A stretch of 24,047 nt of DNA from Naegleria gruberi (Eukaryota), in NCBI GenBank assembly GCA_000004985.1, contig GG738951.1; one strand, written 5' to 3'. Of the stretch, positions 4,055 to 22,641 are shown in pieces; position 1 is the stretch's first letter; the number at the start of each line of letters is the position of its first letter. Under the pieces are notes generated by a model. The model made no database searches. It was not told the origin of the DNA and saw only the letters and a program-made list of their open reading frames with translations. The translations under genes and the position numbers were made by a program.

Positions 4055-4130
4055 CTATATTTTTAATATAAATTCAATTAATATTAAATTATTATTATTA
4101 TTAAATTAAATTATTAAATATAAAACATAC
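4055..4130 (-). other. Intron (76 nt) of the EML gene
   Basis: Minus strand shows a GTATGTT donor directly after ...ATTGCTAAACA and an AT-rich body ending in ...AAAAATATAG. Splicing joins TIAK-H-PNEYIFASGQIGKDDMIYIWDSHD in frame (CA + T = His). The joined sequence matches the EML4 HELP-region ...IATGQIAGVD...VWDS. Confidence 0.8.
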
Positions 4131-4417
4131 TGTTTAGCAATGGTAACAACATCATCATCATGTTTTCTAAAAACAGATTGTGTATTATTTATAGGATCAT
4201 AAACAATACCACATGCAGCACTTGGATATACTAATTTATTTTCATCATTAATATGAAAATAACAACCTTTACATCCTTTTTTAGAAGCACCATGAATAAA
4301 TTCTAATTCTAATTTCTTTGATGGTAATTTATCGACCATCATTTCTTCATAATTAGTTGGTGGAAAATGTGCTGCTTTTAAAAAACGTGGATAAATAACT
4401 GAATTTGATGATGTCAT
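4131..4417 (-). CDS. EML gene exon 1 (ATG at 4417). It encodes the HELP-motif region directly, with no N-terminal coiled coil.
   Basis: Begins with an ATG in A-rich context. YPSAACGIVYDPINNTQSVFRKHDDDVVTIAKHPNEYIFASGQIG parallels EML4 YFIASVVVLFNYEERTQRHYLGHTDCVKCLAIHPDKIRIATGQIAG. Confidence 0.8.
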
Positions 4418-4650
4418 TATAATAGATTTAATATTACAGTGAGTATATTATTATAAAAGATATATATTATAGAAGTGTTTAGCCTTTTTTTTTTGTATTT
4501 TTAAGAGACACTAAGATTTACAGTATATAAATGAAAGACAACACATCAGAGAGAGTGAAGATGTTGATGATAATGATGAACTTTTTGACCCTTAATGAAG
4601 TTGAGAGGTAAAATCTCTATCTCTCTCTATTGATGTCTACAATATGATTG

Positions 4651-4800
4651 AGAGAGATGGAACCATACATGAAATATTACATCTCTTGTTTTTCAGAATG
4701 TTGACCATGTAAATAATACAAGACTTGAATTATTGTATAATATCTAAATATTCATTGACACAATTCAAAAAGGCATGGAACATGGAACAATTTTGTAAAG
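4651..4800 (+). repeat. Left copy of the flanking direct repeat
   Basis: gagagatggaaccatacatgaaatattacatctcttg...ttcattgacacaattcaaaaaggcatggaacatggaacaattttgtaaag. It shares the 24-mer ggaacatggaacaattttgtaaag (4777-4800) and the catgaaatatt[a/g]catctct, ttgaca and ttcaaaaag blocks with the right copy. Weaker similarity extends upstream to the ttgagaggt box at about 4600. Confidence 0.7.
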
Positions 4801-4919
4801 TTATCTCTTAATCATTGTGTAAACTCCTCCTTCCAATCAAAATAGTTCCAGTTCAATGATTGTTGATTCTGACATGCCACTTTAAAAAGTGTGAATATTC
4901 TAAACTCACATTAAAAAAA

Positions 4920-6437
4920 ATGAGAGCATTCACATCCACAATCCGCCACCACACCCTGAAGAAGAATCACACAACAAGCTTTTTATTTTCAAAAAGAATT
5001 GGAAAAGAATCAATTAGAACATTTTCTAAAAATGTAATCCTAAACAATCAAATTCCGCCACCAACAGAAGAACAAGTAAGACACTTATATGACTTGGTAA
5101 TGAATAAAATTGTTTGGGAAAAGGCAAATAGAAATATAGTTCATGAGGATTTGAAAATGGAAAATCAATTTTCGAAACTTGATTTGAAACTTTTGATTAC
5201 TAATACCTCCCTATTTGCTGATCTATTTTCTTTCACACAAGATTTATTGACATTTGATCGATATAATCTTGTTCAGAATAGGGAAGAATTGAAAGAGGTG
5301 AATATTTCAAGTTTGATTCAATATTCTCAATTTTTTGCACATTTACTGAAAGGTATTGTTCAAGGATGGTATTCATTTAAAGATTTGAAACCATACTTTC
5401 CAAATCCACTTACAGGAGTTCAAATTGATGGTAAAGATTTGGTTGAAAATGATCCAGTGACCTATTTATATTGTTTATGGGAATTGAATTCAAAGGATTT
5501 TGTAAATGAACAAGTTCCATTTACAAGAGAGAAATTGATTTGTTTAATTCCAATCATTTTCTCTGCACTAGACCAAAATGATCCTGTAACTGCTTTACAA
5601 TACATGAAATTATTTGTAAAGCATTATCCTAAAGTTAAACAATTATACATAACATCAGCTCAAGGTAGTGATGAATTTTCATTGGAATCAAGTTGGACAA
5701 AAGTTTTAGGTAAAGTTTACACTGAGAATGAATTTGATTCGTGTTTAGATTGGGAAACTGAACTACCTGTAAACCTAAATGGAATGTACAATATTTTTAA
5801 AACACATGCAGACCACCAAACAATTGAAGATCAATGGAAAGTACTCTCAGTTATTGAAGAGGAAGAAAAAAAAACACCATCCAATCCTTATATTTTAGTA
5901 TTTAAGGGATATTTTGGAGATAGTGCTAAAGATTTTATTTATGGATCCAAATGTTTAGAACTATTAGCCAAATCACCTGCCAAAGTTGAAATATTGAAAA
6001 GAACTGAGAAATTTAATGTATTCAAGAATGAACAACCATCCAACCTTGAAATAATCAAAGATTTCAAATTCTTTCCTCTATTATTTTGGAAATGTGTAGT
6101 CTTATCAAAACAGGAAGATCCACGAATGGCAGTAGAATTATTCAAACAAGTGGAATATTATTCAAAAAAACAAACTCATTTTCCATTATTACTCTTGAAA
6201 ATGACTTTAGAATTCAGATTTGCCAATGATGAAGAGGTATTACGTATTTTCCAATTGATGGAACCATTCGAATCACAAACTAATCTTGTCCTTCTAGTCA
6301 GTGCAACAAACTATGCTTGCATGTCAATGAAAAATCTAGGATTAGAACAGGAAATTGTTCCAATGTTGGAAAAATTTATTGAGAAATATGGCAAGGAAAG
6401 TAATTTTACAACTATTCTCAATTACTATAAAAAGTAA
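4920..6437 (+). CDS. Element-borne ORF (505 aa) with no recognisable domain and a basic S/T-rich N-terminus. It could be a retroelement ORF1-like protein or an alpha-helical repeat protein.
   Basis: The ATG at 4920 sits in an aaaaaaaATG context. The track's 4860 start is TTG. The frame is open to 6437. Codon usage is unlike the surrounding genes. Confidence 0.5.
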   Translation: MRAFTSTIRHHTLKKNHTTSFLFSKRIGKESIRTFSKNVILNNQIPPPTEEQVRHLYDLVMNKIVWEKANRNIVHEDLKMENQFSKLDLKLLITNTSLFADLFSFTQDLLTFDRYNLVQNREELKEVNISSLIQYSQFFAHLLKGIVQGWYSFKDLKPYFPNPLTGVQIDGKDLVENDPVTYLYCLWELNSKDFVNEQVPFTREKLICLIPIIFSALDQNDPVTALQYMKLFVKHYPKVKQLYITSAQGSDEFSLESSWTKVLGKVYTENEFDSCLDWETELPVNLNGMYNIFKTHADHQTIEDQWKVLSVIEEEEKKTPSNPYILVFKGYFGDSAKDFIYGSKCLELLAKSPAKVEILKRTEKFNVFKNEQPSNLEIIKDFKFFPLLFWKCVVLSKQEDPRMAVELFKQVEYYSKKQTHFPLLLLKMTLEFRFANDEEVLRIFQLMEPFESQTNLVLLVSATNYACMSMKNLGLEQEIVPMLEKFIEKYGKESNFTTILNYYKK

Positions 6438-7440
6438 AATAGTTCTATTTTCATTAAAAGTTACTACTAGCTCTCAACATTGCACATATTGTTTTTCAAA
6501 ATTGCAACAGTTCAGCCCAAGAGGTACTTTCCTGTATGCTGAAAATTCAGCTTCAATTGCCAGTTGTGTTGATGAGGAACAACTAACTATTGTAACTTGG
6601 TTATTAAGGATAAAGAAGGAAATGAAATTTTGAGAGAACGTGCAACTTTGGATGAATTGAGTGAAGAAACATTCTCTGTTTCATTCTTAATTAAGAGTGA
6701 GCTATATACTGATTATAATATATCAGTAGAATTGGAGGAGAATTCATACTCTTTAGATAATAGTGAACATGTTGATCCATCTCCAATTCAAAAACTTAAC
6801 TTACAAATCAGATGCATTGAAAAGTTCCAAATAGATGCAGCAAGTACAATCTCAAAGAGTTCAAATGAAGAATCTCCATGTTAATGGTAAAATTGTTGAA
6901 GAGAAATTGGAATTCATTGCAAATGAAGTAAAAAAGATTCGTGATAGAACTATTTGAAAAATCATTTCAGGTACCTCACGTGAAAATATCAATGCAGTTC
7001 TTCCATTGTACATTGGTGAGGAACATTGGAGGGTTGCTCGTAAAAAGATGAAGCCAGTTTTAGGATTTGTCGCTACTTTGGATGTAATGGGTTATGCTTT
7101 CGAGCAATTCAAAACCATTCCATTCTTTGTTCTCTTCAAGCTTCTCCAAGAATGCTCTGAACAAGAATCAATGACTGAATTCCAATCTTTGAGATTAAAT
7201 TTGGTTCTAGCCAATTTTTAGAAACTGATGATGTGTATTGTGCAGCTGGTATGTTATTTGGACAAAAGAGAGGTAATGGTGAGTTTATTTATTTCACTCG
7301 TGCTCTATGTACCCCTGGTGTCAAGTTCTTTAAAAGTTGAAAATGTTATTGAGAGGTGAATTCCTTATAGAGTTGTTGAGTTGTTGGATTCTGCGCTTGG
7401 AGAATTGAATTCAATCCGGTGATGTTGTGGAAATTACTAA

Positions 7441-7536
7441 GAGAGCCTATCTGTACATGAAATATTGCATCTCTCTGGCTTTTCAATATATTGACAAAGT
7501 TCAAAAAGTCAAGGAACATGGAACAATTTTGTAAAG
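7441..7536 (+). repeat. Right copy of the flanking direct repeat; it lacks about 54 nt relative to the left copy.
   Basis: gagagcctatctgtacatgaaatattgcatctctctggcttttcaatatattgacaaagttcaaaaagtcaaggaacatggaacaattttgtaaag. The same 24-mer is at 7513-7536. A ttgagaggt box sits at about 7349. Confidence 0.7.
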
Positions 7537-7584
7537 AATATAATCACTAAAATATTAATAAAATAATAATAATCAATTTAAAAA

Positions 7585-8955
7585 ATGTCACATGATTCAC
7601 AATCTGATCAATTAAATGATCAACAACAACAAGAAGAAGAATATAATGAAGAGGAAGAAGAAGAAGAAGAATTTAATGAAGAAGAAGAAGAAATTAAAAA
7701 AACACTTGATGATGAATTATTAGATAGTGCTATTAATAGAGATTTTAATAGATTAAAATTATTATTAATAGAAAAAGGAGCCAATGCATTCTATAATAAA
7801 AGAATAGAAGGAGTATGGGGAGCCTATGAAGAATATGGAGTAATACATAAAGTATTACTTGGATGGGATGATATGAAAGAACAAATGCAAGCTATAGAAT
7901 TATTATTAAGTAAAGGTGCTAATGTAAATGCTATATATGGTAGTAGTAATTGGAAAGGAAGTGGATCAAGTGGTACAGCCTTTGAAATTGTATTAAGTAA
8001 GAATAATATTGAATTAATCAAATTATTTTTAAAATATGGAGCAGATTCAAATACATGTCAAAAAAGACAAGCACACACTATGAGATATGATGGTTCATCA
8101 TCTTTTCCTTTTTTATATCAAAGTGTTAAATATGGTAATTTAGATTTATTTAAATGTTTATTAGAACATAATGCTAATACTAATTTATTTGCTTTTAATA
8201 GAGGTTCATCTGAATATGGTCCTATTGATGATTTAAAAGAATTACCTTTACATTTAGCATGTAAATTATTTAAATCAATTAATAATATTAATATTAATAA
8301 TAATAATAATATTAATGAATCTTATGATAGTGATGATGAATATAATAATAATAATAATGAATCTAAATCTAAAAATAATTATGAAAAATATAAAGAAATG
8401 ATATTATTATTAATTAAATATAATAGTGATATTAACATGTATGGTAAAACAGTATATCAAATACCAAATGAAAATTATCCTAAAAATATAAATGAAGAAG
8501 AATATAATGAAATATCAGATCCAAGAGGTGATAATTTTATACCACAAACTATAAATATTAAAATACAATATACACCACTACATTTATCAATTATTACAAA
8601 TCAAAATGAAGAATTATTTAATTTATTATTATTTAATGGTGCAAATTCAAATATTAATTTTATTAAAAATAATATTGAAATTTCTACTTTAGATTTATTA
8701 AAAGAATATAATTTAAATTGGAATTTAAATTTTCAATGGTCAATTAAATATCATAAATATTTACCTAATCATTTAAAATTAATTATTAATACTTTACAAT
8801 ATATTTCATATCATTTAAATTGGCCTTTAAATTTAGATACTTTATCTATTATTTATAATTTTTTATGTTTGGATTATTTTTATGAAAATGATTTAAAATT
8901 TATTAAAAATAGACAAGAAGAATATGAAAAATTTAAAAAAACTAATTATTATTAA
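7585..8955 (+). CDS. Ankyrin-repeat protein with an acidic (poly-Glu) N-terminus and an Asn-rich insert
   Basis: Repeated ankyrin-like units are present: LLLIEKGANAFYN, IELLLSKGANVNAIYG, IKLFLKYGADSNTC, KCLLEHNANTNLFAF, LPLHLACKLF, TPLHLSIITNQNEELFNLLLFNGANSNINF. The ATG is in A-rich context, the frame is continuous and ends at a TAA. Confidence 0.65.
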   Translation: MSHDSQSDQLNDQQQQEEEYNEEEEEEEEFNEEEEEIKKTLDDELLDSAINRDFNRLKLLLIEKGANAFYNKRIEGVWGAYEEYGVIHKVLLGWDDMKEQMQAIELLLSKGANVNAIYGSSNWKGSGSSGTAFEIVLSKNNIELIKLFLKYGADSNTCQKRQAHTMRYDGSSSFPFLYQSVKYGNLDLFKCLLEHNANTNLFAFNRGSSEYGPIDDLKELPLHLACKLFKSINNININNNNNINESYDSDDEYNNNNNESKSKNNYEKYKEMILLLIKYNSDINMYGKTVYQIPNENYPKNINEEEYNEISDPRGDNFIPQTINIKIQYTPLHLSIITNQNEELFNLLLFNGANSNINFIKNNIEISTLDLLKEYNLNWNLNFQWSIKYHKYLPNHLKLIINTLQYISYHLNWPLNLDTLSIIYNFLCLDYFYENDLKFIKNRQEEYEKFKKTNYY

Positions 8956-9045
8956 TATTTAATAAAAATGTAGAGTGTTTGTTTATATTTTTAATAAAAT
9001 TAACATATCTTTTTATTCTGAATAATTTCCCTTTATTTTTATTCC

Positions 9046-9420
9046 ATCTTTTTGAAAATATATATTTATAATAAATGATATGGACTTTGAAATGATATTA
9101 ATTGTTCATTATAATATCCATATTCTAAATTAATAATTAATTGTTCCAATTCTTTTACATTTCCAATAAATTTAATTTTATTATTAAAAGTATTTAAATT
9201 TAAAGTTAAATATTTAATATTATTTAATTTAAATAATTTAAATGCTGTATCAATAAATATATTACATTCTAATTCTTTTAAATTTTTAAAATTACTATTA
9301 TTAGTAATTAATTCAATAATAGAATCATTATCATAATTATTAATAAATTTAATAGATTTTACATTTAAAGATGTTTTACAAATTGATTTTAAATTTAAAT
9401 AAATTGATAATAAATTAATT
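9046..9420 (-). other. Stop-free, Met-less 125-codon frame with LRR-like content. It is either a possible unannotated 3' exon of the F-box/LRR gene or a relic paralog fragment.
   Basis: Minus-strand frame INLLSIYLNLKSICKTSLNVKSIKFINNYDNDSIIELITNNSNFKNLKELECNIFIDTAFKLFKLNNIKYLTLNLNTFNNKIKFIGNVKELEQLIINLEYGYYNEQLISFQSPYHLL*. Having 125 codons without a stop in about 85% AT DNA is unlikely by chance. Confidence 0.3.
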
Positions 9421-9476
9421 TCTAAATCTCATCATTTATATTATTTTTATAAAAATTTAACTTTAAATTAAAATTA

Positions 9477-10682
9477 TCACTTCTTGATTTTAATTTTAGT
9501 TTCTAAATTTGAACAATTAATGAAAGATGTATTTTTAATAACATTATTTAAATCAACATTAAATTTAATTGATAAATAATTTAATTTTTTTAAATATTTT
9601 AAAAAGGAAATTGTTGTAACATTTTCAATTTTTAAATATTTTATATTTTCTAAAATAATATTATTATCATTTATATTAAAATTATTAATATAAATACTTT
9701 CTAAATTAAATATTACTGAATTTATATTATTTAATTGTAAATTACCCATATAAAAATGTTTTAAATTTTTTAAAGTTCCATTTAATAAATATTCCCAAAT
9801 TAATTCATTTTCTAATTTATATACAGCTATATTTATTTTTAATTTTAAAATATTTTGTAAATAAATTGATTCAAATAAATATTTTAATATATTTGGATTT
9901 TTAATAGAAATTTCTAAACTTTGTAAATTTTTAAATTTTTCTAACATTTCACATAATTGTTCATCAATTATTTTAGTATATTTAAAATGTTTTAAATTAT
10001 TTGGAATTAAACTTGTTATTATATTACAATCTATTAATTCTAAATCTTCTAAATATGGAAAATTAATATTTGTAAATATTGAATTATAACTTTCAATTGA
10101 TAAATTTTTTAATTTTAATTTTCTTAAATTACAAGTTATTAAATTATTAGGAATTTCAAATTTTAAATTTTTACTTGAATCAAATATTAATAAATTATTT
10201 AATTTGTTAAAATCTATAATTATATTATTATTTATATTGTCATTATTTTTAAATTTTAAAATTTCAAGTTGATTCCAATTTGTATTTAAAATTAAAGATT
10301 CAACATTTTCAAAATAATTTGAAATTTCGATAATTTTAATTAATTTTAAACATGATGGTTGATTTATAATTAAATTAATTAAATAATTAGATATTTTAAT
10401 ATTTTTAGATAAAATTAAATGAATTGAAGAAAATAAATTAGATTTCATTATATTAATAAATTCATCACTTAATTTAGTTCCATATTCGGATAATGATATT
10501 TGTTCATCATTTAATTTTGAATGTTTAAATATTTGATAATCATTACATTTTAATATAAATTTATATTCTTCAAATTTAAATCTAATTATTTTACATGTGT
10601 TACATAAATTAATCCATTCTTTTATTCCGTTAGTAAAGGGTATTATTTGATGGTAGAATATTTCTGATGGCAAGTTTTGCAT
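9477..10682 (-). CDS. F-box-like / leucine-rich-repeat (FNIP/LRR-type) protein
   Basis: The N-terminus MQNLPSEIFYHQIIPF fits the F-box LPxEI...I pattern. The body is built from 22-25-aa L/I/N-rich repeats (NLKxLxI..., IPNNLxxL...), typical of dictyostelid LRR/FNIP proteins. Confidence 0.55.
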   Translation of the reverse strand: MQNLPSEIFYHQIIPFTNGIKEWINLCNTCKIIRFKFEEYKFILKCNDYQIFKHSKLNDEQISLSEYGTKLSDEFINIMKSNLFSSIHLILSKNIKISNYLINLIINQPSCLKLIKIIEISNYFENVESLILNTNWNQLEILKFKNNDNINNNIIIDFNKLNNLLIFDSSKNLKFEIPNNLITCNLRKLKLKNLSIESYNSIFTNINFPYLEDLELIDCNIITSLIPNNLKHFKYTKIIDEQLCEMLEKFKNLQSLEISIKNPNILKYLFESIYLQNILKLKINIAVYKLENELIWEYLLNGTLKNLKHFYMGNLQLNNINSVIFNLESIYINNFNINDNNIILENIKYLKIENVTTISFLKYLKKLNYLSIKFNVDLNNVIKNTSFINCSNLETKIKIKK

Positions 10683-10717
10683 TTTTTTTAAAGTTGATCA
10701 AAATTCAATCACATAAA

Positions 10718-10788
10718 ACTTCTCTCGAAATTGAGTGATAATCAGAATTGAATAGCTGAATTGAATAGCTTCCCTTTAGAGAGAAGTT
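10718..10788. repeat. Palindromic element with an internal 13-bp tandem duplication, immediately upstream of the F-box/LRR ATG
   Basis: aacttctctc (10718-10727) and gagagaagtt (10779-10788) form a 10-bp perfect inverted repeat. gaattgaatagct is tandemly duplicated at 10745-10757 and 10758-10770. Confidence 0.6.
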
Positions 10789-11861
10789 ACATCATAAACA
10801 AAAATCGTCCAAAATTAATGCCAGTTATTGTGTGAAATAAAGGTAAGTGATTGGATGGGCAGTAGTATTAACTTATTATCAAGTTTAACATGGACGTCCT
10901 TTTCCTTCATTGAACTCAAGATCTTTCCAATCCTCGAAATCTGCCAAAGTTAATTGATCTTCTCCAGAAGTCTGTAAATGCAGTGACAGTCTAACACAGT
11001 GTTCTCTCTCGTTTGTTGTTAAAGTATACTCATGAAAACATGGTTGTGTAAGTGTATATCTATTGAATTCCGAAATGCGAACAGTGAGGGATATATTAGT
11101 GAATGTATGCAAACATCAACAGTGAACGATTATCCTTGTTCTATTATTCCAATTTAATAATGCTGTTTGAGATCCACTCTTGTTTGTATTCTAAGACTAT
11201 AGTAAATGTGTGATCATCACTATACCTGCCGCTTAACTCCTATGTTCCGTTTTCTAGATGTTAAAGAGTATTCCTATGCTCAAAGTTGACTATCTCCGAA
11301 AAAATAACTTAACTGTAAGCACATTACAATATTTAGGGGATTGTAAAGTCACTACCACTCAGCAGACTGTTTGCGATAGAACTAGCAAACTGCTTCCTAA
11401 GTTATTGTTTGTGTGTTTATACCAACTTGGCAATTGGAGGAGATCAGTTACAATAGAGAAGGAATGGAGATTGAATTTGGAGAATTGGCAGTTACTTCAT
11501 GAATAATTCTGAGTAAATTTACTTAGAAAAAATGTAAGTTGCCTTCCTAGATCTCAATCACTAGCAACATACAATGAATCCAACAAAAAAGCAAATTTAG
11601 AATAAAATGTGTATTTTGAGTAGTCGAACAAAGTTCCAGACCGAAATGTCAGCTGCTTCTAAGATACATGATCTTTCAATGAGAATAACCTAAGAGTGGA
11701 GTACTTGGGTAATAGACAGTGTAATAGTTGGTTTTTAGTTGGCTTTGTTCCCTCTAAACCCCATCCACAACCCTAATTTAATTTTCCCCAACTTCGAACG
11801 ATTTGGTTGGTTCGTTGGTTGGTAGTAGGTTGATTGTTGGGTAAAGGAATGAAATTGGTGG

Positions 11862-11949
11862 GTAACTATTCAATAAATATTCAGTAACCATTCAGTTATT
11901 ATATGGTAAACATTCAGTGACTATTCGGTGAACATTTAGTTTCTATGCG
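11862..11949. repeat. Four tandem 22-bp units (GTAACnATTCAGTnnnTATnnG), preceded by a GGTTGG-rich tract at 11795-11846
   Basis: The units are gtaactattcaataaatattca, gtaaccattcagttattatatg, gtaaacattcagtgactattcg and gtgaacatttagtttctatgcg. Upstream lies ggttggttcgttggttggtagtaggttgattgttggg. Confidence 0.6.
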
Positions 11950-12517
11950 GCTTTTAGTGTGTTGGTTCATTTGACTGAAAGTTTCCCTTAATTTACAATT
12001 TTCATAATTTGAGTAAAACTGATTAATTTATTTACAATTGTTGTGCTTCTTCTGAGTCTGATTGACCATTATCTGAATAAAGATCTGCACCATCTGATTC
12101 CATATCAAGCAAATTAATTGCGTCTGCTGAAGGTTGTGTTGCTCTTGTCAGGTTTTTTGATCCAATCTTTAACAAGTGTTAAAAAAACAACTTGTTCATC
12201 TTCTGCAACATAGCTCTGCAATGAAGAGAATTGACCATTGTTGGCTCTGACATGTTCTCTTGTTGGTGAAGAGGTAGAAGGTTGAATTTCTGTTGTTGAA
12301 TTGAGGATTGAACTCCTTCTATATATTAGAAACTTCGACATTGGAATTCTTCTTTCTTTTTGGCTTCTCTTTTTTCTTTAATTCTATTAGACTCTTTCTT
12401 TTAAAAGAACTCCACAGATTGCTGAATATCTTACTGACATTAACAATAGCTCTAATTAATTGTTGGAAAATAATTAATAAATAATTAAGGATAAACTTCA
12501 CTTAGAATACTTTGCAC

Positions 12518-12891
12518 TTATTTATATGTATCCGTTGACAATCCATTAACATGTTTTCTGCGCAATGTTTCACCAAAAGTTAATTGCAGACAATCTTTAC
12601 ATGAACTCATGGCAGTATCATTTTGGGGAATCCCTTTTCGCTTACAGTAAATTCGAATACATTGCATAACTTCTCTTTTTAATCTATATAAAATCAAATA
12701 ACTAACTAACAACTTGCTTACTTACGCTCGTTGAGTATCCTTCCATCCCACTGCAGCCTTGGGATAACAGTCAGCCAACTTTTCATATGTGGCTTCTGGT
12801 AAACATGTTATGGTTAATTTAGTCTTCTTCTTTGTTATTAGAATAATTTATGTTGAATAAATGGTGTTAAACTACTTACTTTTACGCACAT
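12518..12891 (-). CDS. Small spliced gene encoding a roughly 93-aa Cys-rich basic protein of unknown family. The proposed structure is join(12880..12891, 12726..12829, 12518..12683) on the minus strand, with a possible 5'-UTR intron and a 9-aa uORF upstream.
   Basis: Three GTAAGTA donors lie on the minus strand within 250 bp (plus 12719-12725, 12873-12879, 12960-12966). Each is followed by a short AT-rich segment ending in AG. The spliced frame reads MCVKKKTKLTITCLPEATYEKLADCYPKAAVGWKDTQRALKREVMQCIRIYCKRKGIPQNDTAMSSCKDCLQLTFGETLRRKHVNGLSTDTYK*. The introns are only 50 and 42 nt, and codon usage is non-host. Confidence 0.35.
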
Positions 12892-13031
12892 GATGGTGAT
12901 GATGCTGAAATGAAGTAAAATTGGCAGTTGATGGAAAAGTTACAAGGTTGATGTAGAATTACTTACCTGGCATTTATTGTGTTTTTTTGATTCGAATTTT
13001 CAGTCGAAAGCCAGTTTTTAGACGAAAAAAA

Positions 13032-13565
13032 ATGTCTTTACAAAATAACAAGGAACAAGGTATCTATTTTGAAAGACGCTGTGATTCTTGCAAGAAATCT
13101 TTACACACAGTATTTTACCAACCAATTTCAAGTGCAAAATTCAAGATTCAAATTAAATGTAACTGTGAAAACTCTGAGTGTAAAAATTTTACTAAGGAAA
13201 AACTTGGATGTTGTTTATGTGATTATAGTTGTGTCAAATCTGAAACGTTGTTGAAACATATTACAAAAGAACATTCCATCAAGTTTCCAAAAGTGTGTTG
13301 TGATAAACATTACACCACAATGGAGGAATACGTCGATCATATCAATTTTAAACATCAAACCAACACAAAGAGTGCAATAGAACATCAACCGTTAAAGAGA
13401 TTATGTTTATCTAAACCAGAAAAACCAGTAAAGCTCAGCTCCTCTGCAAATACATCTTTACAGCATGTCATTACTCCTCAAAATGATACATTGGAGTGCA
13501 AGAATGTCTTTCATTTGATCAAATTCAAACCAGATGTAAATATTTCAAAACTCAACAACCAATAA
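13032..13565 (+). CDS. C2H2 zinc-finger protein (177 aa), divergently oriented from the small Cys-rich gene with only about 60 bp between them
   Basis: The ATG sits in aaaaaaaATG context; the track start at 12987 is TTG. Finger 1, CCLCDYSCVKSETLLKHITKEH, fits C-x2-C-x12-H-x4-H. Finger 2, CCDKHYTTMEEYVDHINFKH, is finger-like. Further Cys clusters occur upstream (CDSCKKSLH, CNCENSECKNF). Confidence 0.45.
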   Translation: MSLQNNKEQGIYFERRCDSCKKSLHTVFYQPISSAKFKIQIKCNCENSECKNFTKEKLGCCLCDYSCVKSETLLKHITKEHSIKFPKVCCDKHYTTMEEYVDHINFKHQTNTKSAIEHQPLKRLCLSKPEKPVKLSSSANTSLQHVITPQNDTLECKNVFHLIKFKPDVNISKLNNQ

Positions 13566-13879
13566 TTGATGAAAATGATACTGAACAGGACCAATATGTA
13601 TACTATGGTGTTGTAAATTCAAACATTCATGCAACAACTGGCTATGTTGCACTAAATCAAATAATTGGTAAATGTTTGATTCATAGTATTGCAGGCAAAG
13701 AAATGTTCAACCAATACTCGTTTTTCATGAATTTCCATAAAGTTAAATTTTAAAAATAGAACATTTATTAATTTTTGGCTTTGGAGGTGTATTCAACAGC
13801 GTCCAGCTACCACTACCACCAACTACATCCACTCTTAGGATCAAAGAACAGAACTGAATCGTTTAATTCAATAATTTAT

Positions 13880-16861
13880 TTAAAGTTTTGATTGTTGTTT
13901 GTTGGAATCATTGTTAATAATTTCATGAGCAGCAATTCTTCCATAAACAACACATTCCAATAAACTATTACCAGCCAATCTATTTAAACCATGTAATCCA
14001 CCTGATGCTTCACCTGCAGTATATAAACCTTGAATTGGTTCAACAGTATTATCATTTGCAATTCTTCTTAAAACTCTTGCCTTTTCATCAAATAATAAAC
14101 CACCATGTGTATAGTGAATGGAAGGTGTAATTCTTGAAATATAAATGGTATCATTTAAATTAAATAGAGTTGGGAATAAATTCTTTCCAAAATCATCTAC
14201 AATTGAATTATTTAATTGATATTGATTATAAAAATGATTATAATTTTCAATAGTATTAATTAATTGTTGTAAATTTAAATGTTGTAATGATTCTTGATGA
14301 GCATGTTGTAAATTATTAAATTTCTTAATAAAACCTTTACCAATATAAAAAGATAATAAAGATTCACTAAAAGATTTAGCAACATGATCATTCATAATCA
14401 TATAAGCAGTAGTATGTCCATTTTCAATTTCAGATTTACAATTTTTAAATATCATATCAGAAACATAATCTCTTCTACCTAATTCATTACAAAATCTATT
14501 ACCATTCTCATTAACTATAATACCACCATAAGCACGTAATGCTTCAGCTGCTAAAAATACTGTCATACTTTTAGGATTTAATGGATCAATAAATCCAGTT
14601 GGATGTACTTGAATAGATTCCATATGTATTAATGAGGCTCCTAATTCTTTAACTGCCATTCTAATACCTTCTCCATTAGCAAATTTACCATTAGTAGTTG
14701 GTAATTTTGATAATTGTGGTGCATATTCTTTTAAATATCCTTCTCTATCTGCTGCATATCCACCTGTTGTTAATACAACTGATGATACTTTTAATTCTTT
14801 AACTTGTTGTTCTTTTAATTCTTTTAATTGTTCTGATTGTGATTCTTTTGATTGTTCTTTTGATTCTTGTTCAAGAGTAATATATTTAATACCTGTTACA
14901 ATTGTATTATTATTTTCATCAATTAAAGTTAAAAAACCAATCATTTTAGTACTTGTCATTACAGTAACTCTATCATTTAAATTATTCTTAATATAATTTA
15001 ATAATTTAAAAGTAATTTCAGCACCAACATTCATTGCACGTCCAACTTTAGGTGGAGCAGAACGATGTGTACGTGCCATTGAATGACCACCACATTGTGT
15101 TACTAATTCCATTCCAATACCATGATTTTCTAAAAATTCAATTGCACTTGTTGATTCTTTAACAAGTGTTGAAATTAATTTAGGATTACCTGCTTGTTTA
15201 CCTGATTTAGTAGTATCAGATATAAATAAATCAACTGTATCAGGAATTGATAATCTTTCCTGTGCTTTAGTTAATACTCCATTAATACCTGATGTTGCTT
15301 TAGCACTATTACCACCTGTACGTTCTTCTTTTTCAATTAAATAAACATAACCTCCTAATTCTGCAATTTCAATAGCTGCTGATAATCCTGCAAGTCCACC
15401 TCCAATCACTGCTACTTTTATTGGTGATGATGATGATTGATTAGTTGTAGATGTAGATTCAGTAGTGGTGGTGGATTGTGTAGTAGATTGTTCAACAGTT
15501 GGAGTGTCCATACTTGGTTGATTGGTAGTAGTGGTATCGGATTGTTTTTGATCACTTGTTGGAGTAGTAGTGATAGGTGTAGTAACCTCTTCTTGTTGTT
15601 GTTTAGTAGTAGTAGTAGGAGTGGTGCTAGTAGGAGTAGTTGTTGTTGGTTCTTCTTGTTGTTGTTGTTCAACTTTAGCCTTTGATTCTACTTGTTTGGT
15701 TTCAGCAGTAACTGTAGGGGTTGTTGTTGGAGTACTTGGAGTAGCAGCAGTAGTAGTAGTAGTTTCAGCTTGAGGTGTTGTTGTTGTAGTTGATGTGCTT
15801 GGTTGAGTGGTGGAAGTAGTGGTGGTTGTTGGGTTCAAATTTGGAATTTGTTTTTTATGAATCTTATTTTGGATAAATTCTAAAGCTTGTTCAAATTCAC
15901 TATTTAAATTTGTATAAATTTTAATCCTATCACTATTATTTAATAAAATATTATTTAAATTATTATTATTACTATCAATAATATTATCATCATAATTATA
16001 AAAATAATTAAATTCTTCAAATAATGTAATTGTATTTTGATTAATAGAATTATGAATACTATTATTATCATTTTCATTTAAATTATTTAAATTACAATGT
16101 TTTAATAATGGTAATAAAATAGATCTAGTAGGTAATATATTTGTAATTAATTTATATAATTTTTTAAATAAAATAGATGATGTCTTTTTACCTAATATTT
16201 TATTATAAATAATTGAAATTAATTTATGAATAGATTTATAATCTTTAATTAATTCAATTATTTTATCAATTGTAATCTTTTCATTAATAATTGAATTATT
16301 AATTGGTAATATTGGTGAAAATAAAACTATATTTTCAATATTTTCAATATTATTATTTAATTGTTGTAATTGTTTATAATATAATAAAGTATAAAAAGCA
16401 CCTAATTGATGACCAATTAAACTATATGAATTTAATTTTAATTCATTAACAATAGATTGAATAGAATTCATAATTAAATAATATTGTTCTTTAGAACATG
16501 AACAAGTATTTAAAGTATTATTGTTAGTATTTAAAAAAGATTGACCAATACCAGGTCTATCAAATTTAATTAATCTAATAGAATGTTTTTTAGCTAATTC
16601 ATCTTCATTTAAATGTCCATATGAAAGTGATCCAGGTGTAGGATGTAATTGAATAACTGCATGTCCATTCAAATCACCCAATTCAATATAGGCTATTTTA
16701 GATCCATCCTTTTCAATATATTTTAATTTATTACTAATATTACTATTTAATAATGATTCTGTATGTTTAGGATTTTTATATAAATTAACATTACTTGAAT
16801 ACAATAATGATAAGACTATTGCAATCAAGGCTGTTGTGAGAATAAGTAATTTACTCAACAT
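13880..16861 (-). CDS. 993-aa fusion protein. From N to C: signal peptide or signal anchor; alpha/beta-hydrolase fold domain with the nucleophile Ser replaced by Gln; mucin-like Thr/Pro/Ser/Gln linker; and a soluble FAD-dependent fumarate reductase (OSM1/FRDS, flavocytochrome-c-type flavoprotein).
   Basis: The N-terminus MLSKLLILTTALIAIVLSLLYSS is hydrophobic. HPTPGS and DRPGIGQS match alpha/beta-hydrolase boxes, but the elbow is GHQLG (codon caa at minus-strand 16408-16406). TTTTSTTQPSTSTTTTTPQAETTTTTAATPSTPTTTPT forms the linker. The C-terminal half matches yeast OSM1 closely: VAVIGGGLAGLSAAIE...GGNSAKATSGINGV, GGHSMARTHRS, LPTTNGKFANGEGI, IQVHPTGFIDP, FLAAEALRAYGG, HYTHGG, GLYTAGEASGGLHGLNRLAGNSLLECVVYG. 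Confidence 0.85.
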   Translation of the reverse strand: MLSKLLILTTALIAIVLSLLYSSNVNLYKNPKHTESLLNSNISNKLKYIEKDGSKIAYIELGDLNGHAVIQLHPTPGSLSYGHLNEDELAKKHSIRLIKFDRPGIGQSFLNTNNNTLNTCSCSKEQYYLIMNSIQSIVNELKLNSYSLIGHQLGAFYTLLYYKQLQQLNNNIENIENIVLFSPILPINNSIINEKITIDKIIELIKDYKSIHKLISIIYNKILGKKTSSILFKKLYKLITNILPTRSILLPLLKHCNLNNLNENDNNSIHNSINQNTITLFEEFNYFYNYDDNIIDSNNNNLNNILLNNSDRIKIYTNLNSEFEQALEFIQNKIHKKQIPNLNPTTTTTSTTQPSTSTTTTTPQAETTTTTAATPSTPTTTPTVTAETKQVESKAKVEQQQQEEPTTTTPTSTTPTTTTKQQQEEVTTPITTTPTSDQKQSDTTTTNQPSMDTPTVEQSTTQSTTTTESTSTTNQSSSSPIKVAVIGGGLAGLSAAIEIAELGGYVYLIEKEERTGGNSAKATSGINGVLTKAQERLSIPDTVDLFISDTTKSGKQAGNPKLISTLVKESTSAIEFLENHGIGMELVTQCGGHSMARTHRSAPPKVGRAMNVGAEITFKLLNYIKNNLNDRVTVMTSTKMIGFLTLIDENNNTIVTGIKYITLEQESKEQSKESQSEQLKELKEQQVKELKVSSVVLTTGGYAADREGYLKEYAPQLSKLPTTNGKFANGEGIRMAVKELGASLIHMESIQVHPTGFIDPLNPKSMTVFLAAEALRAYGGIIVNENGNRFCNELGRRDYVSDMIFKNCKSEIENGHTTAYMIMNDHVAKSFSESLLSFYIGKGFIKKFNNLQHAHQESLQHLNLQQLINTIENYNHFYNQYQLNNSIVDDFGKNLFPTLFNLNDTIYISRITPSIHYTHGGLLFDEKARVLRRIANDNTVEPIQGLYTAGEASGGLHGLNRLAGNSLLECVVYGRIAAHEIINNDSNKQQSKL
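15420..15840 (-). repeat. Low-complexity (ACT/ACC/AGT)n-type coding repeat, encoding the Thr/Pro-rich linker of the fusion protein
   Basis: Overlapping ORFs on both strands here are artefacts of the simple-sequence tract. Confidence 0.7.
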
Positions 16862-17152
16862 TTTTTTTTCACTTTTTATTGTTGATCAAATCCCTTTGTT
16901 GCTGCTTGTTGTATAAGTGATAGTAAGTGAAAGGGTACTATTTGAGACATTTGAACATTTTCGTAAGGTTTAAAAATAGTCAATAGATCGATGTTTGTTG
17001 TTGTTGTATTCAATCTTCATAATATAATTGTACTCAATTTTACTTTATTTTTCTCTCTTTTAAACTTCTCAAATAATCAATGTCATATAAAAATCAATAT
17101 AATAAAAATCAATATAATTCTTAAATAATATATATATTATATAAAAAAAAAT

Positions 17153-18016
17153 CTATTGTCTTGGTAAAATAGAATCTTTTAAATCTTGATTTTGTAACAT
17201 TGACCATTCTTGATCTGAAAAGATGAATAAATGAGAAGGTAAAGGTTTACCATTTGGTAATTTAACATTGGGTATTCTTAATTCATCAAAGAAAGGATGA
17301 GCTAAAGCATCCATTGGAGTAATTCTACGTTTTGGATCATATTGTAATAATTTTGTAATTAAATCAACACTATTATTCATTTCAATGAAAGGATCAATTT
17401 GTGAACCAGAATTTGAACCATTATTAGCTTGATAATTACGTTGTAAAAATTGAAATCTATCTGCAAAAACTTGATCCCATGGATTTGGTTTAACTTGTGG
17501 AAATTTAAATTCAGTATAATTCTTATTCATTGCTAAAATATCTTGTTTAGAAGGAGCACCTAATACTTTAATAATTTCAACTAATTGATCAACTGAACTT
17601 TCACCTTGAAATAAAGGAGTACCTAACATTAATTCACCCATAACACATCCACATGACCATACATCAACTGAACAAGTATATTTTGTTGATTGAAATATTA
17701 ATTCAGGTGCTCTATAATATCTTGAACAAATATATGATACGTTAGGTTCTCCTTCTTTTAATTGTTTTGCATTTCCAAAATCACATAATTTTAAAATTCC
17801 ACTCACTGGATCTATTAATAAATTTTGTGGTTTTATATCACGATGACAAATACCAAGTGAATGTATATATATCACTGAACGTAATAATTGAAATACAAAT
17901 AATTTAACATAAATACTTGGTACATAGGAATTATGTTTAGCATAATTCATACAAAATCTATAAACTGTATCAGGTACATATTCTAATACTAAATTTAAAT
18001 ATACTTCTTCTGGATC
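17153..18016 (-). CDS. gskA: Glycogen synthase kinase-3, exon 2 (kinase subdomains V-XI and C-terminal tail)
   Basis: [20 protein letters not shown]...[19 protein letters not shown]...[12 protein letters not shown]...[19 protein letters not shown]...[15 protein letters not shown]...[15 protein letters not shown] matches GSK-3beta almost residue for residue. The acceptor ...AAAATAATAG lies at 18017-18020. Confidence 0.9.
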
Positions 18017-18160
18017 CTATTATTTTAAATTGTTTTAAATTGTTTTTTAAATATTATTATAGATATAAATATTATTATTATAAATATTATTATTATTAAA
18101 AATATTAAAATTATTAAAAATATTAAAATTATTAAAAATATTATAAATATAAAAACTTAC

Positions 18161-18787
18161 TCTATCACCTCTTGAATAAAAATAATTTTTCAATTCAACA
18201 ACATTTGGATGTGATAATGTTTTCATTACTTGTAATTCTCTATTTTTAAATCTCTTATCTTGAAGTACTTTCTTAATAGCTACTATATCTCCTGTTTCTT
18301 GTACTTTAGCTAGAAATACAACACCAAAACTACCATTACCAATCACTTTAACAGCACTATAAGAAACTACTTTGCCTTGTCGTGTTGGTGGTGATGTTGT
18401 TGAGGTTGCTGCTGCTGTAGTAGTAGTAGTAGTAGTAGATGAATTATTATTTGGTTGTTGTTGTTGTTGAATAGATGAATTGACTAGGCTAGTGGAAGGT
18501 TGTTGTTTTGAATTGATGGATTTGGTTTTTCTAGTTGGTGATTCATTTCCAGGTTGATTAGTTATATTATTTGTATTATTAGTGGTTGTAGTAGTACTTG
18601 TTGTTGTAGATTTTGATGAAGATTGATAATTATTATAGGATCTATTGGTTTTATCATTATTTCCAATTTGAAGATAATTAAAATTATTAATTAAATTATC
18701 CATATTATTATTGTTAGTAGTATTTGTATTGGAATTTGAATTGTTATTATTATTATTATTATTAATGAAGGAATTATTATTGTACAT
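18161..18787 (-). CDS. gskA: Glycogen synthase kinase-3, exon 1 (poly-Asn/Thr N-terminus, ATP-binding loop, VAIK, HRD upstream region). The true start may be the second Met, MDNLINNF.
   Basis: [67 protein letters not shown] is followed by a GTAAGT donor at minus-strand 18160. The 144-nt intron (18017-18160) contains (aaaatattaaaattatt)n repeats. Phase is preserved: 627 nt plus 864 nt. Confidence 0.9.
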
Positions 18788-19546
18788 TGTTGATATAATA
18801 CAATAATAATATTGCTGAACACAGCGCTGTTAGAATGTTTTGATTCACAATGAATGACACACCTAGAAAGAGAGAGTGTGTGTGCTGTTTCTAATATATA
18901 TATATTGATTATATATTCAATGAAAGAGAGAGAGGTTATTGTTGTTGAGATGTTTTTTCGCAGTTATTATTAATTGAAGAATCGTAATTTTTTTCTTCTA
19001 ATTAAAAAAATAATGAAAACGTCATCACCCACATGCACAATGAATGAAATATTGAAAATAATATGAAATTTATTATCTCTTTTATGATTGACTTGCCAAT
19101 TGAAATAATATGTCTCTAATGACTCAATCTCTATTATACCTCTTTACAATATATGTAATTATTATACATTGAAAAGTAAATAGTATAACGTATTATTATA
19201 TGTGTACTATTAAAGTGAGGACAAATTGAAATTATCATCATGAATGAGGGAGGGTTGTAAATTTGTAACTACATTCTCAACCAATAAACACCTGTAGTGA
19301 TTCTTTTATAAACAACTATTTAGGAGCATAATACACATTCCTTTTATGTACATTAAATGATCAATTATATTACAAGTTCATTAAGAACTGTTTGGCGCCA
19401 AATATTTTACAGTAATAATTTCCATTTTACTCACTATTGTCAATTTGATTTCAACAATATTAGCCAACATAATCAATGTACTACTATAATATTCAACAAT
19501 ATATTCAATATATATAATTATTATAATTATTATTATTATTAATAAA

Positions 19547-21289: not shown

Positions 21290-21300
21290 GTCATGTAAAT

Positions 21301-22083: not shown

Positions 22084-22142
22084 TTTTATTATTGTGAAAA
22101 TTGTTAAATGTCATTAATTATTATCATGTAATTAGTACTTCG

Positions 22143-22591: not shown

Positions 22592-22641
22592 ATGTAGATT
22601 TGACTAATCCATATATTCTTCCTCCTCCTATTTATTCTCAA

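What the first reader, a model, noticed from the sequence alone, without database searches (positions are those of the whole stretch)
10690..13870. Second GC-richer island exactly filling an intergenic space, carrying a divergent gene pair of a tiny Cys-rich protein and a C2H2 finger protein
Like the first block, this segment begins within about 10 bp of a host start codon (10682) and ends at a host stop codon (13880). It has non-host codon usage throughout (CCC, CGA, GGG, CTG), lacks the homopolymer-codon tracts of the host genes, and contains structured repeats at 10718-10788 and 11795-11949.

Its centre holds two head-to-head ORFs whose start codons are about 140 bp apart (the minus ATG is at 12891; the 5'-UTR GTAAGT donors extend to 12966): a three-exon, roughly 93-aa Cys-rich basic protein and a 177-aa C2H2 zinc-finger protein. 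A DNA transposon remnant is one explanation, since zinc-finger/BED-like DNA-binding proteins are common transposase accessories. A horizontally acquired or fast-evolving gene island is another.
Basis: partly seen in the sequence, partly recalled or inferred. Interest (0 to 1): 0.6.

Follow-up and report, generated by a model that had tools for sequence, protein, structure and literature searches.

The report
Naegleria-type DNA block with decayed genes
The 3.2-kb GC-richer island is real, but it is ordinary Naegleria gruberi-type DNA carrying broken gene remnants; the unusual part is the extremely AT-rich genes on either side of it.

Summary
The island (10683-13879) is real. It runs from the ATG of a 401-aa ORF to the stop of a fumarate reductase gene. 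Its ORFs have GC3 0.24 against 0.07 in the flanks.

The window is a complete 24,047-bp scaffold of the Naegleria gruberi NEG-M assembly, not a dictyostelid. The island's composition matches bona fide N. gruberi-like DNA (GC 0.34, GC3 0.27-0.31). The flanks are the outliers: Dictyostelium-like composition, no close heterolobosean homologue for the two flank genes searched.

An independent metagenome contig, 98.5% identical, spans the island/fumarate-reductase junction, so that junction is not an assembly chimera.

The 177-aa zinc-finger ORF is an internally deleted, frameshifted copy of a longer gene found on another N. gruberi scaffold. The putative three-exon Cys-rich gene is unannotated and has no family match. 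Its first two exons are absent from the metagenome copy.

No inverted terminal repeats, transposase or reverse transcriptase were found. There is only a 9-nt flanking direct repeat (p about 0.05).

Best reading: a decaying duplicate of native-type Naegleria DNA sitting in a spacer of an AT-rich gene array of unresolved origin. How it got there is inferred, not shown.

The parts
10683..13879 (.). Island 2: a 3.2-kb block of Naegleria-type composition between the ATG of the AT-rich 401-aa ORF and the stop codon of the AT-rich fumarate reductase gene
   Evidence: GC profile. GC3 contrast. The 4-mer log-odds against a bona fide N. gruberi-like contig is positive without a break over 10621-13920.
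10687..10695 (+). Left copy of the 9-nt direct repeat TTTAAAGTT; candidate target-site duplication, weak
   Evidence: Shuffle and random-pair controls give p about 0.04-0.06.
13879..13887 (+). Right copy of TTTAAAGTT; it overlaps the fumarate reductase stop codon
10717..10788 (.). 14-nt inverted repeat (13/14 complementary) enclosing a 13-nt tandem duplication, GAATTGAATAGCT x2
   Evidence: DNA fold -9.6 kcal/mol, z = -1.9.
10789..12031 (.). Stretch at about 0.34 GC with only short open frames (longest 82 codons); apparently non-coding or fully decayed
   Evidence: No Pfam hit in six frames.
11803..11950 (+). TTGG run (11803-11823) followed by an 11/22-nt tandem array (11862-11950, about 3-6 units, 62-77% matches)
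12032..12341 (-). Two overlapping minus-strand ORFs (75 aa and 47 aa) in different frames across a T7 run. The related strain has a 1-nt insertion at 12295 inside this stretch. Probable dead coding remnant.
   Evidence: Not in the protein collection.
12518..12891 (-). Putative three-exon, 93-aa Cys-rich ORF. Exons 12891-12880, 12829-12726 and 12683-12518; introns of 50 and 42 nt starting GTAAGT.
   Evidence: Model built. No Pfam hit and not annotated. Window 12673-12917 is absent from L002.
12892..13031 (.). 140-nt spacer between the two divergent ATGs; contains a further minus-strand GTAAGT at 12966
13032..13565 (+). 177-aa zinc-finger ORF (XP_002668796, NAEGRDRAFT_76280). Residues 1-156 match the longer paralogue; the last 21 residues are read out of frame after a deletion at about 13499/13500.
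13496..13753 (+). 85-codon open frame, in a different frame from the zinc-finger ORF. It encodes the continuation of the longer paralogue (36/37 residues identical to the end of XP_002668567) and is the C-terminal remnant of the ancestral gene.
   Evidence: The chance of 85 open codons here is about 0.003.
9477..10682 (-). Left neighbour: AT-rich 401-aa ORF (GC 0.13, GC3 0.06), not annotated in the public record
13880..16861 (-). Right neighbour: AT-rich 993-aa Osm1-type soluble fumarate reductase with a Thr-rich linker (XP_002668799)
   Evidence: The junction with the island is confirmed in L002.

Best explanation
Island 2 is a block of ordinary Naegleria gruberi-type DNA. It is most likely a decaying duplicate of sequence present elsewhere in the same genome. 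It lies in what was once a very short spacer between two co-oriented genes of an extremely AT-rich gene array.

Shown:
- The window is an N. gruberi NEG-M scaffold.
- The island has the base and codon composition of bona fide N. gruberi-like DNA, and the flanks do not.
- The island/fumarate-reductase junction exists in an independent assembly of a strain that differs by about 1-1.5%.
- The 177-aa zinc-finger ORF is a copy of a gene of roughly 345 codons that has lost about 103 codons and shifted frame.
- The minus-strand ORFs carry indels between the two strains.

Inferred:
- The block reached this site by duplicative insertion (transposition, or capture during break repair) into the spacer between the fumarate reductase stop and the next gene's ATG. 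A possible 9-bp target duplication marks the edges.
- Since then it has decayed neutrally.
- The two head-to-head ORFs are therefore remnants, not a working bidirectional gene pair. The island probably has no function of its own, beyond possibly supplying upstream sequence to the 401-aa gene.
For: Identity of the record:
- The zinc-finger ORF, the fumarate reductase, the EML-type WD40 protein, the GSK3-like kinase and the island-1 protein are all exact N. gruberi entries on a contig of 24,047 bp, which is the window length.

Composition:
- Flank ORFs have GC3 0.04-0.13. Island ORFs have GC3 0.23-0.29. Island non-coding DNA is 0.31-0.34 GC.
- L004 carries a homologue, at least 90% identical, of a gene on a 275-kb N. 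gruberi scaffold. It has GC 0.34, GC3 0.27-0.31 and non-coding GC 0.37.
- The N. gruberi genome is 33% GC (PMC6892926 Table 2).
- A 4-mer model trained on L004 against the flanks marks 4471-7520 and 10621-13920.

Homology:
- The island-1 protein has named homologues only in N. gruberi (scaffolds of 259-304 kb), N. lovaniensis and Willaertia magna.

Real junction:
- ENA contig L002 aligns to window 12918-14306 at 98.5% identity, across position 13879/13880.
- Divergence is about the same on both sides: 9 substitutions in 962 nt on the island side and 4 in 427 nt in the fumarate reductase.
- The same ENA sample also holds the flank GSK3 exon (L003, 99.9% identical) and bona fide Naegleria-like DNA (L004).

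Decay:
- XP_002668567, on a different scaffold of 10,214 bp, matches residues 1-156 (155/156 identical). It then has 103 residues absent from the window, then 36/37 residues encoded by the window's 13496-13753 frame.
- L002 lacks window 12673-12917 and has a 1-nt insertion at 12295.

Insertion into a spacer:
- TTTAAAGTT occurs at both edges.
- Removing the island leaves the fumarate reductase stop and the next ATG about 5 nt apart. Elsewhere in the AT-rich array a stop and the next ATG are 11 nt apart, at 21289-21301.
Against: - No terminal inverted repeats, LTRs, poly(A) end or Helitron ends were found. No transposase or reverse-transcriptase domain was found. The mechanism of insertion is therefore not demonstrated.
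- The 9-nt repeat is only borderline significant.
- The 'second copies' lie on small scaffolds (10.2 and 4.6 kb). They could be alternative haplotypes of the same locus rather than paralogues, so copy number is not established.
- The DNA of those scaffolds could not be fetched.
- The direction of events is inferred from gene-boundary geometry only. The alternatives are that the island inserted into the AT-rich array, or that AT-rich blocks inserted into native DNA.
- The zinc-finger ORF has 2 synonymous and 2 non-synonymous differences and no indel between strains. That is too little to exclude that the 177-aa product is still used.
- A 53-nt GTAAAT..AACAG interval (13536-13588) could in principle splice the ORF back in phase to the downstream frame.
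- The origin of the AT-rich flanks is unresolved, so 'native' and 'foreign' labels rest on composition and on limited homology searches.
Confidence: 0.55

Rival explanations
1. The island is the remnant of a DNA transposon that inserted into an intergenic space of an AT-rich (dictyostelid-like) host. The zinc-finger protein is a transposase accessory or the DNA-binding end of a transposase.
For: - Sharp compositional block in a spacer.
- A second near-identical copy of the zinc-finger gene elsewhere.
- Internal deletion, as in non-autonomous elements.
- Flanking 9-nt direct repeat.
- N-terminal Cys/His clusters in the ORF.
Against: - No inverted terminal repeats at any orientation.
- No transposase, BED, THAP, KDZ, reverse-transcriptase or integrase domain in six frames or in the reconstructed 342-aa protein.
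- The intact gene seems to be only about 345 codons long.
- The two islands share no termini.
- Island 1 carries an ordinary heterolobosean family gene, not a transposon gene.
- The record is N. gruberi, and the two flank genes searched have no close dictyostelid homologue.
Confidence: 0.2
2. The reverse geometry. The two islands are what is left of a native Naegleria locus. The AT-rich blocks (1-4417, 7585-10682, 13880-end) are foreign DNA that integrated in several pieces.
For: - The islands are native in composition and homology, and the flanks are not.
- Both islands look like fragments of longer sequences. The zinc-finger gene is truncated. The other copy of the island-1 gene continues into 96 residues that are absent from the window.
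Against: - The AT-rich blocks end exactly at a start codon and a stop codon, and all their ORFs are intact. This is easier to explain by insertions into spacers of a pre-existing, selected gene array.
- Joining the island ends gives no recognisable continuous gene.
- There are no repeats at the AT-rich block ends.
Confidence: 0.15
3. Artefact. The scaffold is an assembly chimera, or comes from a contaminating AT-rich organism, and the island is mis-joined Naegleria sequence.
For: - Small scaffold with two N gaps.
- Flanks very unlike Naegleria in composition.
- Several flank ORFs looked up are absent from the public protein collection.
- The two islands and the AT-rich block between them are each about 3.1-3.2 kb, the size of a small-insert clone.
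Against: - An independent ENA assembly reproduces the island/fumarate-reductase junction with 1.5% divergence.
- The same sample holds the flank GSK3 and bona fide Naegleria-like DNA.
- Junctions coincide with gene boundaries.
- Divergence is equal on both sides of the junction.
- ContScout removed 60 N. gruberi proteins on contigs it judged contaminant; 37 of them were individually tagged bacterial, 16 had no data and 5 were tagged other-eukaryote (PMC10831095, Supplementary Data 5).
- Only the right junction of island 2 is independently verified.
Confidence: 0.05
4. A genuine, functional bidirectional gene pair. A small Cys-rich protein and a small zinc-finger regulator are driven from a shared 140-nt promoter, atypical only in composition.
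For: - Canonical GTAAGT donors and in-phase exons give 93 aa.
- A-rich ATG context as in the other genes.
- The zinc-finger ORF is intact in both strains, without indels.
Against: - Exons 1-2 of the Cys-rich model are absent in the related strain.
- The zinc-finger ORF ends in 21 out-of-frame residues after a deletion relative to its paralogue.
- Neither has any detectable homologue beyond copies of itself.
- The Cys-rich model is not annotated.
Confidence: 0.05

Closest known systems
Duplicated or unprocessed pseudogene block (dispersed segmental duplicate)
   Same: A near-identical copy exists elsewhere in the assembly. The island copy has a frame-shifting internal deletion, strain-specific indels in its other ORFs, and no detectable selection.
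   Different: It sits exactly in a gene-to-gene spacer with a possible 9-bp flanking repeat. It contrasts sharply in composition with its surroundings, which is unusual for an ordinary segmental duplicate.
Decayed non-autonomous class II (DNA) transposon
   Same: Discrete block in an intergenic spacer, internal deletion, at least two copies, possible target-site duplication, Cys/His-rich putative DNA-binding ORF.
   Different: No terminal inverted repeats, no transposase domain in any frame, no termini shared with the neighbouring island. Membership was tested and not met.
Host DNA or transposons invading endogenised foreign DNA, as described for eroding giant endogenous viral elements (abstract of bioRxiv 10.1101/2025.04.23.650285, seen)
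   Same: Native-composition segments interrupt a compositionally foreign gene array inside a protist genome.
   Different: The AT-rich array here carries cellular-type genes, at least one with a spliceosomal intron. No viral hallmark gene was seen, and it has no relatives in IMG/VR. A viral origin is not supported.
Compositional islands used to detect horizontal transfer (un-ameliorated foreign DNA)
   Same: Sharp GC3 and codon-usage discontinuity at gene boundaries.
   Different: Measured against the organism of record, it is the flanks that are atypical, not the island.

Membership tests
Class II DNA transposon (TIR elements, including hAT/BED, PIF/Harbinger, Tc1/mariner) | Terminal inverted repeats at the element ends | tested here: not met
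   The best inverted matches between the ends are at chance level (z about -0.1).
Class II DNA transposon (TIR elements, including hAT/BED, PIF/Harbinger, Tc1/mariner) | Target-site duplication flanking the element | tested here: inconclusive
   TTTAAAGTT at 10687 and 13879. A match this long is reached by 6% of shuffles and 4% of random window pairs.
Class II DNA transposon (TIR elements, including hAT/BED, PIF/Harbinger, Tc1/mariner) | Transposase (DDE or other) coding sequence, or a recognisable remnant | tested here: not met
   Six-frame translation of 10683-13879 against Pfam gives no family at E <= 0.1. The reconstructed 342-aa protein gives only weak zinc-finger matches.
Class II DNA transposon (TIR elements, including hAT/BED, PIF/Harbinger, Tc1/mariner) | Multiple dispersed copies in the genome | tested here: inconclusive
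   One further copy of the zinc-finger gene, at least 90% identical, lies on a 10,214-bp scaffold. Its DNA was not retrievable. Haplotig and paralogue cannot be told apart.
KDZ (Kyakuja/Dileera/Zisupton) or Plavaka-type transposase; considered from memory because of the motif APFANELEWHSF in the longer copy | CxC cysteine-cluster domains and the KDZ catalytic domain (Pfam) | tested here: not met
   No such Pfam family at E <= 10. The gene seems to end after about 345 codons, far shorter than these transposases.
Helitron | 5'-TC and 3'-CTRR ends with a sub-terminal hairpin; insertion between A and T | tested here: not met
   Read directly. There is no CTRR end in either orientation. The only hairpin (10717-10788) has a 44-nt loop and is not followed by CTRR.
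LTR or non-LTR retroelement | Reverse transcriptase or integrase remnant; LTRs or a 3' poly(A) followed by a target duplication | tested here: not met
   No reverse-transcriptase or integrase domain. No long terminal direct repeats in island 2. The A8 run at the left edge lies outside the candidate duplication.
Classical C2H2 zinc finger (Pfam zf-C2H2 clan) | C-x2-4-C-x12-H-x3-5-H pattern and a score above the Pfam gathering threshold | tested here: inconclusive
   One canonical pattern (CLC...H-x4-H, residues about 60-83) and one degenerate CC-x12-H-x4-H pattern can be read in the sequence. All Pfam matches are below their cut-offs. PDB matches to ZFAT and ZIC3 have E = 0.06-0.14. The single-sequence structure model is unusable (pLDDT 34).
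Giant endogenous viral element (for the AT-rich flanks) | Nucleocytoviricota hallmark genes or close relatives in viral genomes; intron-poor genes | tested here: not met
   Five flank proteins have no relative in IMG/VR contigs. Pfam shows cellular families only. The GSK3 gene has a 144-nt GTAAGT..TAG intron that matches the annotated mRNA. Only 18 kb could be examined.

The most novel reading that the evidence does not exclude
The AT-rich array around the island is DNA recently acquired by the Naegleria gruberi lineage from an unsampled AT-rich eukaryote, or from a large element carrying eukaryotic genes. It spans at least 18 kb. It has Dictyostelium-like composition, intact genes (one with a spliceosomal intron), and no close heterolobosean or dictyostelid homologue for the two genes searched. 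It is stably linked to native DNA in at least two strains. On this reading islands 1 and 2 record native DNA inserting into the spacers of the foreign array. That would be a multi-gene eukaryote-to-eukaryote transfer caught before amelioration.
Probability: 0.3. Interest if true: 0.75.

Novelty: new member of a known kind. Interest (0 to 1): 0.35.

Why it matters
The island itself matters little. It is a decaying piece of ordinary Naegleria-type DNA, and its two ORFs should not be treated as a functional gene pair or as evidence of a new mobile element.

The context is worth following up. A scaffold of the N. gruberi reference genome consists mostly of genes with Dictyostelium-like composition. 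For the two searched (fumarate reductase, EML-type WD40 protein), no close relative turned up in other heteroloboseans. They are nevertheless physically joined to native-type DNA in two independent data sets.

If these genes are a recent transfer, they are a rare multi-gene eukaryotic acquisition. They would also bear on metabolic reconstructions that cite this fumarate reductase. If instead they belong to another organism, several N. gruberi reference proteins (XP_002668798-800 and others) are mis-assigned. Either outcome affects users of this reference genome.

Tried and rejected
1. **Dictyostelid repeat idea.** The protein searches returned N. gruberi self-hits and no close dictyostelid relative.
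2. **tRNA-targeted retroelement.** There is no tRNA gene in the window.
3. **RNA genes in the ORF-poor left part.** Rfam gives only three chance-level snoRNA matches, none inside island 2.
4. **Terminal inverted or direct repeats.** None was found at the island ends or shared between the two islands.
5. **Helitron and poly(A)-retroposon readings of the ends.** Both were rejected on direct inspection.
6. **KDZ/Plavaka-type transposase for the longer zinc-finger gene.** This was a lead from memory and is not supported by Pfam.
7. **Giant-virus origin of the flanks.** Five scans of IMG/VR found nothing.
8. **More copies in JGI metagenomes.** There were no hits for the long zinc-finger protein or for the fumarate reductase domain.
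9. **Exact-protein look-ups.** Look-ups for the 401-aa ORF, three island ORFs including the 192-aa form of the zinc-finger ORF, and XP_002668567 found nothing on record.
10. **Structure prediction.** The zinc-finger ORF (pLDDT 34) and the fumarate reductase domain with a 4-sequence alignment (pLDDT 45) both gave models too poor for a fold search, so none was run.
11. **Literature.** ContScout removed 60 N. gruberi proteins on contigs it judged contaminant, most of those individually tagged being bacterial. The N. gruberi methylome paper does not mention this scaffold. The ENA project PRJEB11402 is not cited in the held library.
12. **Shared promoter between the AT-rich genes and the island edge.** There is only a 10-nt motif, not significant in alignment.


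Full report
**1. What the window is**

The 177-aa ORF of the finding is 100% identical to a 'predicted protein [Naegleria gruberi]' whose contig is 24,047 bp long, exactly the window length. The flank proteins are exact N. gruberi NEG-M entries on the same contig:
- fumarate reductase, XP_002668799
- EML-type WD40 protein, XP_002668798
- the island-1 protein, XP_002668794
- a GSK3-like kinase, XP_002668800, whose two-exon model I rebuilt exactly

The window is therefore a complete small scaffold of the N. gruberi reference assembly, with N gaps at 907-2220 and 22143-22591.

**2. The observation**

The island is real. GC is 0.29-0.36 from about 10600 to 13800, against 0.10-0.13 just to the left. 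Its left edge lies within 10-30 nt of the ATG (10682, minus strand) of a 401-aa ORF. Its right edge is at the stop codon (13880) of the 993-aa fumarate reductase ORF.

The right edge is not a GC step, because the conserved 3' part of the fumarate reductase gene is itself 0.30-0.37 GC. Third codon positions separate the two classes:
- flank ORFs: GC3 0.04-0.13
- island ORFs: GC3 0.23-0.29
- island non-coding DNA: GC 0.31-0.34
- an AT-rich spacer: GC 0.12

Pooled, GC3 is 0.070 (4558 codons) against 0.243 (767 codons), p = 2e-51. Homopolymer amino-acid runs number 17 in the flanks and 0 in the island ORFs.

The hairpin at 10717-10788 is only marginal (z = -1.9). The two ATGs are 141 nt apart. A three-exon CDS of 93 aa can be assembled.

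**3. Which side is the odd one?**

A contig from an ENA metagenome assembly (L004, sample ERZ929261) carries a homologue, at least 90% identical, of a gene on a 275-kb N. gruberi scaffold. It has GC 0.34, GC3 0.27-0.31 and non-coding GC 0.37. That is the composition of the islands, and the N. gruberi genome as a whole is 33% GC (PMC6892926, Table 2). A 4-mer model trained on L004 against the flanks is positive without a break over 4471-7520 and 10621-13920.

The gene of the sister island (505 aa as annotated, from the ATG at 4920; the 525-aa ORF from 4860 was the query) was searched exhaustively. All named homologues come from three sources: N. gruberi genes on scaffolds of 259-304 kb (34-42% identity), N. 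lovaniensis, and Willaertia magna. It also has a 99.7%-identical partial copy on a 4.6-kb N. gruberi scaffold.

The flanks are different:
- The EML-type protein has no heterolobosean or dictyostelid protein among its best 120 hits. The best non-self hit is 48% identical, from an unlabelled metagenome contig.
- The fumarate reductase's best relatives are 34-36% identical. Two are unlabelled JGI proteins and one is fungal. The closest solved structure is yeast Osm1.
- Five flank proteins have no relative in IMG/VR.
- The flank ORFs I looked up that were absent from the collection include the 401-aa, 456-aa, 580-aa and 260-aa ORFs.
- The flanks are nevertheless cellular-type DNA. The GSK3 gene has a 144-nt, extremely AT-rich GTAAGT..TAG intron.

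Measured against the organism of record, the 'GC-richer islands' are normal and the AT-rich genes are the anomaly.

**4. Is the mosaic an artefact?**

No, at least not at the right junction of island 2. The cluster of the zinc-finger protein contains a 177-aa member from ENA. Its contig L002 (1819 bp) aligns to window 12918-14306 at 98.5% identity. It runs from the island across 13879/13880 and 427 nt into the fumarate reductase gene.

Divergence is the same on both sides: 9 substitutions in 962 nt and 4 in 427 nt. The four fumarate reductase changes are two synonymous and two conservative.

The same sample contains the GSK3 exon of the flank (L003, 99.9% identical) and the bona fide Naegleria-like contig L004. 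The mosaic therefore exists in a second, slightly diverged strain that co-occurs with Naegleria-like DNA. The other three junctions are not independently verified.

**5. What the island's ORFs are**

The zinc-finger cluster also contains XP_002668567, a partial 296-aa protein on a different N. gruberi scaffold of 10,214 bp. It compares with the window as follows:
- Residues 1-156 match the window ORF (155/156 identical).
- The next 103 residues are absent from the window.
- The last 37 residues match (36/37) the 85-codon open frame at 13496-13753, which is in a different frame from the 177-aa ORF.

The window copy has therefore lost about 103 codons plus a frame-shifting remainder at about 13499/13500. 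The ORF then reads 21 out-of-frame codons to a stop. The true C-terminal part survives as an orphan open frame; the chance of 85 open codons here is about 0.003. The metagenome strain has the same deleted form, so the deletion predates the split of the two strains.

The ancestral gene is roughly 345 codons: Cys/His clusters at the N-terminus and an uncharacterised C-terminal part. Nothing beyond weak zinc-finger similarity was found for it.

On the minus strand:
- The 93-aa Cys-rich model has no family match and is not annotated in any of three splice variants.
- In L002 the whole of window 12673-12917 is missing: exon 1, intron 1, exon 2, intron 2 and 11 nt of exon 3. The break has about 5 nt of imperfect microhomology and no splice-site ends.
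- The 75-aa and 47-aa ORFs at 12032-12341 lie in two frames across a T7 run, and L002 has a 1-nt insertion inside them.
- The left 1.35 kb has only short open frames.
- No Pfam domain is detectable in any of six frames of the island.

The island is thus a block of decaying sequence, not a working divergent gene pair.

**6. How it got there (inferred)**

No inverted terminal repeats, LTRs, Helitron ends or poly(A)-plus-duplication structure are present, and the two islands share no termini.

The only edge signal is TTTAAAGTT at 10687 and 13879. A match this long is reached by 6% of shuffles and 4% of random window pairs.

Removing the island and one repeat copy leaves the fumarate reductase stop and the next gene's ATG about 5 nt apart. 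That fits the AT-rich array, where the stop of the 260-aa ORF and the ATG of the 580-aa ORF are 11 nt apart. All AT-rich ORFs are intact and the island boundaries coincide with their ends.

I therefore favour insertion of native-type DNA into a spacer of a pre-existing AT-rich array, by transposition of an unrecognised element or by capture at a repaired break, followed by neutral decay. The converse, AT-rich pieces inserted into a native locus, cannot be excluded. The 'second copies' may be haplotigs rather than paralogues, because their DNA could not be retrieved.

**7. Comparison with known things**

The island works like a dispersed duplicate or dead non-autonomous element. It fails the tests for membership of any transposon class (see the membership table).

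The situation resembles host sequences invading endogenised foreign DNA. The foreign-looking array, however, is not viral by any test available here.

**8. Verdict**

It is wrong about which partner is foreign, and it lacks support for a transposon or a functional gene pair.

The island is ordinary. The unresolved AT-rich array around it is the more interesting object and deserves whole-genome and long-read follow-up.

Noticed in passing
window 1-4417, 7585-10682, 13880-24047: About 18 kb of Dictyostelium-like DNA inside an N. gruberi reference scaffold. GC3 is 0.04-0.13, with poly-N/T/Q tracts and one AT-rich spliceosomal intron. It encodes GH47, an EML-type WD40 protein, an ankyrin protein, an Osm1-type fumarate reductase, a GSK3-like kinase and several orphan ORFs. 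The two genes searched (EML, fumarate reductase) gave no close heterolobosean or dictyostelid homologue, and five flank proteins gave no relative in IMG/VR. Several ORFs looked up are unannotated. Origin unresolved.
   Followed up: partly
window 4470-7540 (island 1): A second block of Naegleria-type composition, also about 3.1 kb. It carries a 505-aa gene of a family found only in Naegleria and Willaertia among named hits. A 99.7%-identical partial copy on a 4.6-kb scaffold continues into 96 residues that are absent from the window.
   Followed up: partly
window 4747-4800 and 7485-7536 (also 4666-4678 and 7454-7466): A 54-nt direct repeat (91% identical) plus a 13-mer. One copy lies about 120 nt upstream of the island-1 gene's ATG. 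The other lies about 50 nt upstream of the ATG of the AT-rich ankyrin gene. This may be a duplicated promoter element.
   Followed up: no
window 21289-21301: The stop of the 260-aa ORF and the ATG of the 580-aa ORF, on the same strand, are only 11 nt apart. The AT-rich array is very tightly packed, or the two ORFs belong to one gene.
   Followed up: no
window 10683-10706 and 16862-16896 (minus strand): TTTGATCAAC followed by an A-run precedes the ATGs of both the 401-aa ORF and the fumarate reductase. An A7-8 ATG context is shared by AT-rich and island genes.
   Followed up: partly
window 13536-13588: A 53-nt GTAAAT..AACAG interval would, if spliced, join the 177-aa ORF in phase to the downstream 13496-13753 frame and restore the C-terminal 55 residues.
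   Followed up: no
L002 1-38: The first 38 bases of the ENA contig are an inverted copy of window 12501-12538. This is probably an assembler artefact at the contig end.
   Followed up: no
L001 (ENA ERZ27315067, 8006 bp): The closest relative of the flank EML protein (48% identity) lies on a 40% GC contig. Its genes are tightly packed on one strand with spacers of 8-48 nt, next to a 1594-aa MORN-repeat protein. Organism unknown.
   Followed up: no
window 16821-17070 and 18821-18970: Short patches upstream of the AT-rich fumarate reductase and GSK3 genes score as Naegleria-like in the 4-mer model, unlike the AT-rich spacer between the convergent ankyrin and 401-aa ORFs and the GSK3 intron.
   Followed up: no
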